Below, one piece after another: positions 39,601 through 42,600 of a DNA stretch of 64,000 bases (positions are counted from its first letter, which is position 1; every line of letters starts with the position of its first letter). This DNA comes from Escherichia coli (GTDB lineage: Bacteria; Pseudomonadota; Gammaproteobacteria; Enterobacterales; Enterobacteriaceae), in NCBI RefSeq assembly GCF_003991155.1, contig NZ_CP031293.1, one strand, 5' to 3'. The position numbers are program-made.

Positions 39601-42600
39601 GCAAAACGCGCATGCCAGGTGATGGCAGGAATATATAAATCATAATGTTCTGGCTGTTGCCAGGTTTGTGCAATATTTTCTCTAAACGTTGTCATCCACT
39701 CATCAGCGTTAGCAAAAACTTTACCAACACTGATTAACTGAATAAAAACAAAGAAAAATATAGTGACATATTTACTCACGTTCATTTGTGACCATTAAAC
39801 ATTTATCAAAAATCTACTACTAGCATAGCAAAGCTACAATTAACATAACCTTAATAGCCCCAACATAAAAAATAATCTGAATAGCTGCTCTATTTATTTC
39901 CGCTTGTTTAAGTTAAATATTTCCGCACATCGATTAAAGATGATGCGTCGTTTTCTGCGATGGGAATAGTCAAAAAAGAAAAACCAAGTCTTTTTTGATG
40001 ACAAAATGCAATCAAGGAAAAATTATTTTATTTTTTAACGAGATACAACAATCATCTTAACGAAGTATATAATATATATCGTCAACCCATGCTCATATTA
40101 GATTATTTTTTGAGCGCATGGCCGCAGCTAACACCATTGCAATTAACAAATTTGCATCAATCCACCATCAATTTACACACATTATTATGTGATATTTGCC
40201 AACCGCTAAATATGCGTTTTGTTATCTACGTATAAAAACAGCAACTTCAATGTCTTAATGGCAGTTTTTCTTGATTTTAATCAGCATTCACCGCCAATTT
40301 ATTGGGCATATTTTTTCCTTAGTTTTTAGGAATTTTTTATTATTTACTTTGGGGCCTGGAGACAGGAAAAATTATGCTGACATTCATTGAACTCCTTATT
40401 GGGGTTGTGGTTATTGTGGGTGTAGCTCGCTACATCATTAAAGGGTATTCCGCCACTGGCGTGTTATTTGTCGGTGGCCTGTTATTGCTGATTATCAGTG
40501 CCATTATGGGGCACAAAGTGTTACCGTCCAGCCAGGCTTCAACAGGCTACAGCGCCACGGATATCGTTGAATACGTTAAAATATTGCTAATGAGCCGCGG
40601 CGGCGACCTCGGCATGATGATTATGATGCTGTGTGGCTTTGCCGCTTACATGACCCATATCGGCGCGAATGATATGGTGGTCAAGCTGGCGTCAAAACCA
40701 TTGCAGTATATTAACTCCCCTTACCTGCTGATGATTGCCGCCTATTTTGTCGCCTGTCTGATGTCTCTGGCCGTCTCTTCCGCAACCGGTCTGGGTGTTT
40801 TGCTGATGGCAACCCTGTTTCCGGTGATGGTAAACGTTGGTATCAGCCGTGGTGCAGCTGCTGCTATTTGTGCCTCCCCGGCGGCGATTATTCTCGCACC
40901 GACTTCAGGGGATGTGGTGCTGGCGGCGCAGGCTTCCGAAATGTCGCTGATTGACTTCGCCTTCAAAACGACGCTGCCTATCTCAATTGCTGCAATTATC
41001 GGCATGGCGATCGCCCACTTCTTCTGGCAACGTTATCTGGATAAAAAAGAGCACATCTCTCATGAAATGTTAGATGTCAGTGAAATCACCACTACTGCTC
41101 CTGCGTTTTATGCCATTTTGCCGTTCACGCCGATCATCGGAGTGCTGATTTTTGACGGCAAATGGGGTCCGCAATTACACATCATCACTATTCTGGTGAT
41201 TTGTATGCTGATTGCCTCCATTCTGGAGTTCATCCGCAGCTTTAATACCCAGAAAGTTTTCTCTGGTCTGGAAGTGGCTTATCGCGGGATGGCCGATGCG
41301 TTTGCTAACGTGGTGATGCTGCTGGTTGCCGCTGGGGTATTCGCTCAGGGGCTTAGCACCATCGGCTTTATTCAAAGTCTGATTTCTATCGCCACCTCGT
41401 TTGGTTCGGCGAGTATCATCCTGATGCTGGTATTAGTGATCCTGACAATGCTGGCGGCAGTCACGACCGGTTCAGGCAATGCGCCGTTTTATGCGTTTGT
41501 TGAGATGATCCCGAAACTGGCGCACTCTTCCGGCATTAACCCGGCGTATTTGACTATCCCAATGCTGCAGGCGTCAAACCTCGGCCGTACCCTGTCACCC
41601 GTTTCTGGCGTAGTCGTTGCGGTTGCCGGGATGGCGAAAATCTCACCATTTGAAGTCGTAAAACGCACCTCGGTGCCGGTGCTTGTTGGGCTGGTGATTG
41701 TTATCGTTGCTACAGAGCTGATGGTGCCAGGAACGGCAGCCGCGGTCACAGGCAAGTAAATAGTCATGCCGGAGGCAAGTTTCCTCCGGCTTTATCATGT
41801 CACCCACTGTGGTATATGCGTTGCGGTCTGCCAACTTTGCCGTGAACAATTTCAGCAATAATCAGATGGCGGCTGGCGCAATATTCAAGATAACGTCTGG
41901 CAGTGGTGCGGCTGATAGTCAGTGCCTGCGCCACCGTTTCTGCCGTATGTTGCACACCAGGCTCTTTAAACAGTTTTCGCACTGCGTTTAGCGTCAAGGG
42001 GTCAATGCCGGTCGGCAGTTCGTCTTTGGGTTCACCGCGAGCATAGGCATTAAACATCTCATCAATTTGCTTCTGGCTGGCGCTATCAATACTTTCCAGC
42101 ATATGTTTACGCTGGCGGAAACGGGTTAGCGTTTGCCCCAGCCGTTCATAGGCAATGGGCTTAATGAGATAATCAAATACACCACAACGTACGGCTTCAG
42201 ACACCGTTTCCATATCGCTGGCTGCAGTGGTAAACACCACGTCGCCGGGATAATGCGCCTGCACCAGTTCATGCAGTAAATTAATCCCTCTACCGTCAGG
42301 AAGATAGTTATCGAGCAAGATTAGCCCCGGCTTAAAACGCTCGATCATCATTCGGGCCTGCGCCAGGTTTCCCGCCAGTAATATCTGACTGAATCCGGGA
42401 ATGTGACGAATATATTCCGCATGCATCTCTGCCAGCGGCGTTTCGTCCTCAACGATCAATAGGGTTAATGGAGCTGTCATTAGGTTTCACTTTCGGAATA
42501 TAGATTGAAAATAAGGTACCGCAGGGATCATTATCTTCGAGAGTGATAACACCACCGCAGCGCGTTACGTAGCTGGCAATCAAGTACAACCCAATGCCAT

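What the first reader, a model, noticed from the sequence alone, without database searches (positions are those of the whole stretch)
40271..40284. Near-consensus FNR box in the long AT-rich pagP–dcuC intergenic region
TTGAT-N4-ATCA(g) lies about 96 bp upstream of the dcuC start codon within a 588-bp AT-rich spacer. This is compatible with a class II FNR-activated promoter for the anaerobic C4-dicarboxylate carrier.
Basis: partly seen in the sequence, partly recalled or inferred. Interest (0 to 1): 0.25.

Follow-up and report, generated by a model that had tools for sequence, protein, structure and literature searches.

The report
Known FNR activator site upstream of dcuC
The motif is the real, already published binding site through which the oxygen sensor FNR switches on the E. 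coli succinate/C4-dicarboxylate carrier gene dcuC without oxygen, so the finding is correct but ordinary.

Summary
TTGATTTTAATCAG lies at 40271-40284. It matches 9 of the 10 specified bases of TTGAT-N4-ATCAA, and its centre is 96.5 bp upstream of the dcuC ATG. The pagP-dcuC spacer is 588 bp and 31% G+C.

The window is E. coli and the motif is identical in K-12. Sequence alone is weak evidence: 8.6% of dinucleotide shuffles of the spacer give an equally good FNR matrix hit.

The site is already published. Myers et al. 2013 list exactly this 14-mer as a predicted FNR site under an FNR ChIP-seq/ChIP-chip peak, whose summit is about 10 bp from the motif centre. They class dcuC as directly FNR-activated. 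Oberto et al. 2009 showed fnr-dependent anaerobic induction of a dcuC::lacZ fusion.

New here is a comparison of 80 Enterobacteriaceae species. All keep the box: half-sites are conserved and the N4 spacer varies. In 77 of the 80 box-bearing sequences (the window counted among them), a -10-like CA(C/T/G)ATT follows exactly 22 nt after the box. There is no -35. This is class II geometry, with the box at about -41.5 and the transcription start (TSS) near 40319. An anaerobic sigma70 ChIP-seq peak maps to about 40330.

Caveat: I found no anaerobic TSS map. An aerobic high-throughput 5' end at 40336 would put the box at -58.5.

Verdict: already known, low interest.

The parts
40271..40284 (+). FNR box TTGATTTTAATCAG (palindromic; 9 of 10 specified bases)
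   Evidence: Sequence. Its reverse complement CTGATTAAAATCAA is listed at 655281 of K-12 as a predicted FNR site under a ChIP-seq peak (Myers 2013 Table S6). Identical in K-12. Present in all 80 Enterobacteriaceae loci.
40267..40269 (+). Conserved T-tract just upstream of the box (TTT at -52 to -50 if the box is at -41.5)
   Evidence: At least 90% conserved columns in the anchored comparison of 80 distinct sequences and in the 23-genus alignment.
40298..40312 (+). Conserved block TTTATTGGGCATATT. Its last six bases CATATT (40307-40312) are the inferred -10 hexamer.
   Evidence: Consensus tttaTT.GGCAcATT at fixed, ungapped distance from the box. CA[CTG]ATT lies exactly 22 nt after the box in 77 of 80. 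Only this block and the box are conserved across genera.
40318..40321 (+). Inferred FNR-dependent transcription start (box centre then at about -41.5 +/- 2)
   Evidence: Inference from the -10 position. The anaerobic sigma70 ChIP-seq peak at 655235 of K-12 maps to about 40330. Not mapped directly.
40336..40336 (+). Published high-throughput 5' end (-38 from the ATG), from aerobic cultures; primary or processed is unknown
   Evidence: Mendoza-Vargas 2009 supplementary table. The proposed -10 region there (K-12 CTTAAGCT) varies even within E. coli.
40364..40368 (+). Shine-Dalgarno-like AGGAA, 5 nt before the ATG
   Evidence: Sequence. Invariant in the Escherichia alignment.
40374..41759 (+). dcuC coding sequence (anaerobic C4-dicarboxylate transporter, 461 aa), the regulated gene
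   Evidence: ORF list. RefSeq annotation of an identical record.

Best explanation
The motif is the operator of the oxygen sensor FNR in the dcuC promoter.

Shown by others:
- Under anaerobiosis FNR occupies this 14-mer in vivo.
- dcuC transcription rises about 20-fold anaerobically and depends on fnr.

Inferred here: the promoter is class II. The box is centred about 41.5 bp upstream of a start near 40319. It replaces the missing -35 element and lies 22 nt upstream of a conserved -10 hexamer (CATATT in E. coli, CACATT in most enterics).

From established knowledge of class II CRP/FNR promoters: the [4Fe-4S] FNR dimer at this position recruits and activates sigma70 RNA polymerase through contacts with the alpha subunit and sigma region 4. 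The transcript would carry a 5' UTR of about 55 nt before the dcuC ATG.
For: - The site is identical to the published one, and the FNR ChIP-seq summit 655,298 maps to window ~40267, 10 bp from the box centre.
- The peak was called by three ChIP-seq callers and by ChIP-chip.
- dcuC is 'activated' in WT versus delta-fnr RNA-seq, and its aerobic/anaerobic ratio is 0.05.
- Anaerobic induction of dcuC::lacZ depends on FNR.
- The box is present in all 80 species and in the window. TTGAT is kept in 78 of 80 and the right half is [AG]TCA[GT] in 80 of 80. The N4 spacer has 13 variants.
- A -10-like hexamer lies at a fixed 22-nt distance in 77 of 80.
- No sigma70 -35/-10 pair is found there, as expected for an activator-dependent promoter.
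- An anaerobic sigma70 ChIP-seq peak lies at ~40330.
- pagP is not in the FNR-dependent gene list.
Against: - Myers et al. could not assign a position and wrote 'TSS not in peak region'.
- A 5' end at -38 from the ATG would put the box at -58.5.
- In Escherichia a good TATTAT at 40338-40343 could serve a class I start, with the box near -72.
- H-NS ChIP-chip regions cover the promoter, so anti-silencing could contribute.
- The inferred start region (CTT) has no purine at the ideal distance.
- The motif alone is not statistically compelling.
Confidence: 0.85

Rival explanations
1. The same FNR site acts as a class I (upstream) activator. Transcription would start further downstream, at the published 5' end 40336 (box at -58.5) or after TATTAT 40338-40343 (start ~40350, box near -72). 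FNR would contact only the alpha C-terminal domain.
For: - A 5' end at -38 from the ATG.
- TATTAT is invariant in Escherichia.
- Myers et al. list activated promoters with boxes at -56.5, -60.5 and -72.5.
- The sigma70 peak at ~40330 cannot separate starts 20-30 bp apart.
Against: - The sequence downstream of 40313 is not conserved outside Escherichia, whereas the block ending in CA(C/T)ATT keeps a fixed 22-nt distance from the box in 77 of 80 species.
- The 5' UTR length varies from about 60 to 340 nt while the box-to-hexamer distance does not.
- The -38 end comes from aerobic cultures and may be a processing product.
- -58.5 is off the usual class I helical phases. This point rests on established knowledge, not on a test here.
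Confidence: 0.1
2. The motif is a chance match in AT-rich DNA, or a site for another factor such as CRP, and dcuC is controlled by FNR indirectly.
For: - 8.6% of shuffles of the spacer give an equal PWM hit.
- The score (11.2 bits here; PatSer 12.38, just above the published cut-off) is lower than all 62 training sites.
- The earlier FNR ChIP-chip study did not find the peak (column 'previous').
Against: - In vivo FNR occupancy is centred on the motif.
- The footprint across 80 species has conserved half-sites and a free spacer.
- The left half is TTGA, not the GTGA that CRP needs, and the right half reads CTGA on the other strand, so neither half fits CRP (CRP/FNR discrimination is established knowledge).
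Confidence: 0.03
3. The box serves the divergent gene pagP as well as, or instead of, dcuC.
For: - pagP (crcA) is 3.4-fold higher anaerobically.
- The stronger anaerobic sigma70 peak (655742, window ~39823) lies at the pagP end of the spacer.
Against: - The box is about 490 bp from the pagP ATG.
- pagP is absent from the list of operons differentially expressed between WT and delta-fnr.
- The spacer between the box and pagP is hypervariable even within E. coli.
Confidence: 0.02

Closest known systems
The dcuC FNR site of E. coli K-12 as published (Myers et al. 2013, PLoS Genet 9:e1003565, Tables 1, S5, S6)
   Same: The 14-mer is identical, and so is the surrounding sequence except for a few substitutions. 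The gene pair pagP/dcuC is the same. ChIP-bound, and dcuC is placed in category 1, 'directly activated'.
   Different: Nothing at the site itself. That paper gave no promoter class ('TSS not in peak region'). The class II geometry and the 80-species footprint are added here.
Textbook class II FNR-dependent promoters (narG, nirB, dmsA, pflB P6, and the synthetic FF-41.5 melR promoter), with the box at -41.5
   Same: TTGAT-N4-ATCAA-type box, 22 nt from a -10 hexamer, no usable -35, anaerobic activation.
   Different: The dcuC box is weaker: 9 of 10 bases, with a G at the position that separates FNR from CRP sites, against 10 of 10 for narK/nirB/yfiD. The dcuC start is inferred, not mapped.
dcuB-fumB promoter (the other FNR-dependent Dcu carrier)
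   Same: An FNR ChIP peak, FNR-dependent anaerobic expression and a weak box (TTGATCTGGCACAA, PatSer 12.3).
   Different: In dcuB the FNR box lies far upstream (-132.5 in Myers Table 1). From my own knowledge, that promoter also depends on DcuS-DcuR and is nitrate-repressed, and dcuC is reported not to respond to C4-dicarboxylates (Zientz et al. 1999, which I could not read here).

Membership tests
FNR-regulated promoter (FNR regulon member) | Inverted repeat resembling TTGAT-N4-ATCAA | tested here: met
   TTGATTTTAATCAG matches 9 of 10 bases. PWM score is 11.2 bits, the best in the spacer by 7 bits.
FNR-regulated promoter (FNR regulon member) | FNR occupies the site in vivo under anaerobiosis | not testable with these tools
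   Taken from the literature. Myers 2013 report a ChIP-seq peak (three callers) and a ChIP-chip peak; the summit 655,298 maps to window ~40267.
FNR-regulated promoter (FNR regulon member) | Expression of the downstream gene depends on fnr and anaerobiosis | not testable with these tools
   Taken from the literature. RNA-seq of WT versus delta-fnr gives 'activated', and the aerobic/anaerobic ratio is 0.05. dcuC::lacZ was tested in fnr+ and fnr- backgrounds.
FNR-regulated promoter (FNR regulon member) | Site conserved in orthologous promoters, with conserved half-sites and a free spacer | tested here: met
   80 of 80 species. TTGAT in 78, right half [AG]TCA[GT] in 80, and 13 spacer variants.
Class II (overlapping -35) activator-dependent promoter | Box centred near -41.5 relative to the transcription start | tested here: inconclusive
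   A -10-like hexamer exactly 22 nt after the box in 77 of 80 implies -41.5. No anaerobic start map was available. An aerobic 5' end at 40336 would give -58.5.
Class II (overlapping -35) activator-dependent promoter | Poor or absent -35 hexamer, so the promoter is silent without the activator | tested here: met
   The consensus scan finds no sigma70 promoter at the site. The hexamers at -35 to -30 (GCATTC, or AGCATT with an 18-nt spacer) match TTGACA in 0-1 of 6 positions (read).
CRP site | TGTGA-N6-TCACA, with G/C at the positions where FNR sites have T/A | tested here: not met
   The left half is TTGA and the right half is TCAG. Only Salmonella arizonae has GTGAT in the left half.
sigma54 promoter (considered because of the conserved GGCAC) | GG at -24 and GC at -12, ten bases apart (TGGCAC-N5-TTGC) | tested here: not met
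   Nothing is conserved ten bases downstream of the GG. The sigma54 regulon paper lists dcuD, not dcuC.

The most novel reading that the evidence does not exclude
The dcuC FNR box may be kept deliberately sub-optimal. None of the 80 species has the consensus right half TCAA; 74 have TCAG and 6 have TCAT. A simple G-to-A transition would create the consensus, and the adjacent N4 spacer has diverged into 13 variants over the same period.

The block just upstream of and including the -10 (TTATTNGGCAYATT) is also more conserved than a -10 hexamer needs. Two readings follow:
- dcuC is tuned to respond only at high active-FNR levels.
- A second, unidentified factor reads the G/CAA flank or the extended -10 block. 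ArcA is reported to co-regulate dcuC.
Probability: 0.3. Interest if true: 0.3.

Novelty: already known. Interest (0 to 1): 0.1.

Why it matters
DcuC is the C4-dicarboxylate carrier used for succinate efflux during glucose fermentation, so its anaerobic switch is part of the standard picture of E. coli fermentation. The site and its regulation are already in the literature and nothing changes. The added value here is small. The comparison makes a class II architecture the best-supported reading of a promoter for which the genome-scale study gave no position. It also shows that the box is an ancient feature shared across Enterobacteriaceae.

Tried and rejected
Searches for a mapped transcription start:
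- The Kim et al. 2012 supplementary tables, as stored, hold no entry for dcuC, for 6552xx-6557xx, or for the Klebsiella orthologue beyond the orthologue list.
- The Ettwiller et al. 2016 Cappable-seq supplements have no hit.
- Thomason et al. 2015 and both Zientz et al. papers (1996, 1999) are not held.
- A text search for 'dcuCp' gave only unrelated papers.

Other tests:
- sigma54 reading of the conserved GGCAC: rejected.
- Rfam scan of 39700-40500: no family at E <= 1.
- ArcA direct-repeat scan (TGTTA-N6-TGTTA, up to 2 mismatches): only weak candidates at 39841-39856, 40144-40159 and 40220-40235, none overlapping the box. Park et al. 2013 report a PWM-predicted but ChIP-negative ArcA site somewhere in this spacer. 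I could not place it.
- The single locus that seemed to lack the box (L045) has it 341 nt upstream of the ATG, behind an insertion in the 5' UTR.

Full report
**1. What is there**

The window is E. coli. The pagP-dcuC spacer is 100% identical to NZ_CP033635.1, and the RefSeq annotation of that record maps one-to-one onto window coordinates. The genes and the spacer are:
- pagP at 39225-39785 on the - strand.
- dcuC at 40374-41759 on the + strand.
- The spacer 39786-40373: 588 bp, 31.3% G+C, against 49.6% for the whole window.

At 40271-40284 the + strand reads TTGATTTTAATCAG. This is one mismatch from TTGAT-N4-ATCAA, with the centre 96.5 bp before the dcuC ATG.

**2. Is it more than chance?**

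On sequence alone, barely.
- The window has 8 matches with at most one mismatch, against 3.2 +/- 1.7 expected.
- I built a position weight matrix (PWM) from the 62 other ChIP-bound FNR sites listed by Myers et al. 2013. The site scores 11.2 bits with it. That ranks 5th in 64 kb and is lower than every training site.
- It is nevertheless the only credible hit in the spacer; the next scores 4.3.
- 8.6% of dinucleotide-preserving shuffles of the AT-rich spacer give an equal or better hit.

**3. Published evidence**

K-12 MG1655 carries the identical 14-mer, at 656058-656071 of NC_000913.3.

Myers et al. 2013 (PMC3688515) report the following.
- Table S6 lists CTGATTAAAATCAA, the reverse complement, at 655281 (older coordinates). 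It is labelled 'dcuC/pagP', with PatSer 12.38 and ln p -10.96, and is marked as lying at an FNR ChIP-seq peak.
- Table S5 shows the peak called by MOSAiCS, NCIS and CisGenome and by ChIP-chip.
- Table 1 gives the summit as 655,298. This maps to window ~40267, 10 bp from the box centre. It places dcuC among operons directly activated by FNR.
- dcuC is 'activated' in WT versus delta-fnr RNA-seq, and its aerobic/anaerobic ratio is 0.05.

Oberto et al. 2009 (PMC2634741) built a dcuC::lacZ transcriptional fusion. Its anaerobic induction depended on FNR.

pagP is higher anaerobically (ratio 0.29) but is not in the fnr-dependent list.

**4. Promoter class**

Myers et al. gave no position for dcuC ('TSS not in peak region'). 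I fetched dcuC loci from 80 species of Enterobacteriaceae and scanned their upstream regions.

Every one carries the box. The one apparent exception has it behind an insertion in the 5' UTR. Counted over the 80 box-bearing sequences (79 loci and the window):
- The left half is TTGAT in 78 of 80.
- The right half is [AG]TCAG in 74 and [AG]TCAT in 6.
- The N4 spacer has 13 different sequences.

Conserved half-sites with a free spacer are what a CRP/FNR-family operator is expected to show.

Anchoring the sequences on the box without gaps shows a second conserved block, tttaTT.GGCAcATT. Its last six bases are CACATT in 62, CATATT in 7 (including E. coli), CAGATT in 7 and CAAATT in 1. They lie exactly 22 nt after the box in 77 of 80. 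The remaining three have TACATT at the same place or CACAAT one base closer.

A 14-bp box followed by 22 nt and a -10 hexamer is the geometry of a box centred at -41.5. In the window the -10 is 40307-40312 and the start about 40319.

Further support for class II:
- No -35 is present, and the generic sigma70 scan finds nothing here.
- In a 23-genus alignment of 130 nt upstream and 50 nt downstream of the box start, the box and this block are the only conserved elements.
- The distance from box to ATG varies from 61.5 to about 340 nt.
- Myers Table S1 lists an anaerobic sigma70 ChIP-seq peak at 655235, which maps to window ~40330.

**5. What speaks against class II**

- Mendoza-Vargas et al. 2009 (PMC2760140) report a pyrosequencing 5' end 38 nt upstream of the dcuC ATG (window 40336), with a proposed -10 CTTAAGCT. 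That would put the box at -58.5.
- However, the RNA came from LB and minimal-medium cultures with no anaerobic condition. The authors also state that such ends can be degradation products.
- The proposed -10 differs between this window and K-12 and is not conserved outside Escherichia.
- A TATTAT at 40338-40343 could support a class I start in Escherichia only.

I rate class II at about 0.85 given that FNR acts here. The alternative is class I.

**6. Other context**

- H-NS ChIP-chip regions cover the promoter, and Shimada et al. 2014 flag H-NS in this spacer.
- Shimada et al. also assign a constitutive promoter ATGACA-17-AATTAT towards dcuC. This is the only hit of the consensus scan, at 39998-40026. 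It lies in the part of the spacer that is hypervariable within E. coli. It may be the distant start that Myers et al. had in mind.
- Park et al. 2013 mention a PWM-predicted but ChIP-negative ArcA site in the spacer. My simple scan could not place it.
- No Rfam family matches.

**7. Small unexplained points**

No species has the consensus TCAA in the right half, although G to A is a single transition and the neighbouring spacer has diverged freely. The bases after the box (CAA) and the TTATTNGG before the -10 are also conserved. This could mean a tuned, deliberately weak operator, or a second factor. I did not test either.

**8. Verdict**

The finding is correct and its interpretation is supported. 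The site is already in the literature, so novelty is 'already known' and interest is low. The only addition is comparative evidence for a class II arrangement and for the age of the site.

Noticed in passing
window 12816-12829: TTGATTAAGATCAC lies between rihA and hscC, 62 bp before the hscC ATG. It is the best FNR matrix hit in the whole window (16.2 bits), better than the dcuC box. Myers et al. 2013 list its reverse complement (GTGATCTTAATCAA, hscC) as a predicted site with no FNR ChIP peak and covered by H-NS. It shows that motif strength does not predict occupancy here.
   Followed up: partly
window 39930-40190 (central pagP-dcuC spacer): The middle of the spacer is hypervariable within E. 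coli. Whole-spacer identity is 90-95% in 2026 of 5381 genomes. Divergent alleles pile up substitutions between about 39930 and 40130, while the 75 bp around the FNR box stay at least 95% identical in 5378 of 5397 genomes. Nineteen genomes (for example strain 2022H048) carry a very different allele that resembles E. albertii/cryptic-clade sequences, which suggests recombination.
   Followed up: partly
window 40284 and 40298-40306: The non-consensus G that ends the box is never A in 80 species (74 G, 6 T). TTATTNGG, immediately upstream of the -10 hexamer, is conserved beyond what a -10 needs. No known motif was matched; sigma54 was excluded.
   Followed up: partly
window 39998-40026 (+ strand): ATGACA-17-AATTAT is the only sigma70 consensus match in the spacer. 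It is the same element that Shimada et al. 2014 assign as a constitutive RpoD promoter towards dcuC. It would give a leader of about 340 nt. It lies in the poorly conserved part of the spacer.
   Followed up: partly
window ~39823: The stronger anaerobic sigma70 ChIP-seq peak of Myers et al. (655742; 37 aerobic against 366 anaerobic) maps next to the pagP start. pagP is 3.4-fold higher anaerobically without being fnr-dependent in their data. The cause of this oxygen response is not explained here.
   Followed up: no
L045 2160-2500 (Citrobacter amalonaticus S646): An insertion of about 240 bp with two copies of a GC-rich hairpin-like repeat (GGGGCTCGCCC(C/T)TTCGGGGC...) sits between the conserved FNR/-10 core promoter and the dcuC ATG. 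It lengthens the leader to about 290 nt. It looks like a small repetitive extragenic or MITE-type element.
   Followed up: no
L042 (Salmonella enterica subsp. arizonae), box 96.5 nt before the ATG: The left half-site is GTGAT instead of TTGAT, and the -10 is TACATT. A G at this position is the CRP-type base, so the Salmonella arizonae site is an FNR/CRP hybrid half.
   Followed up: no
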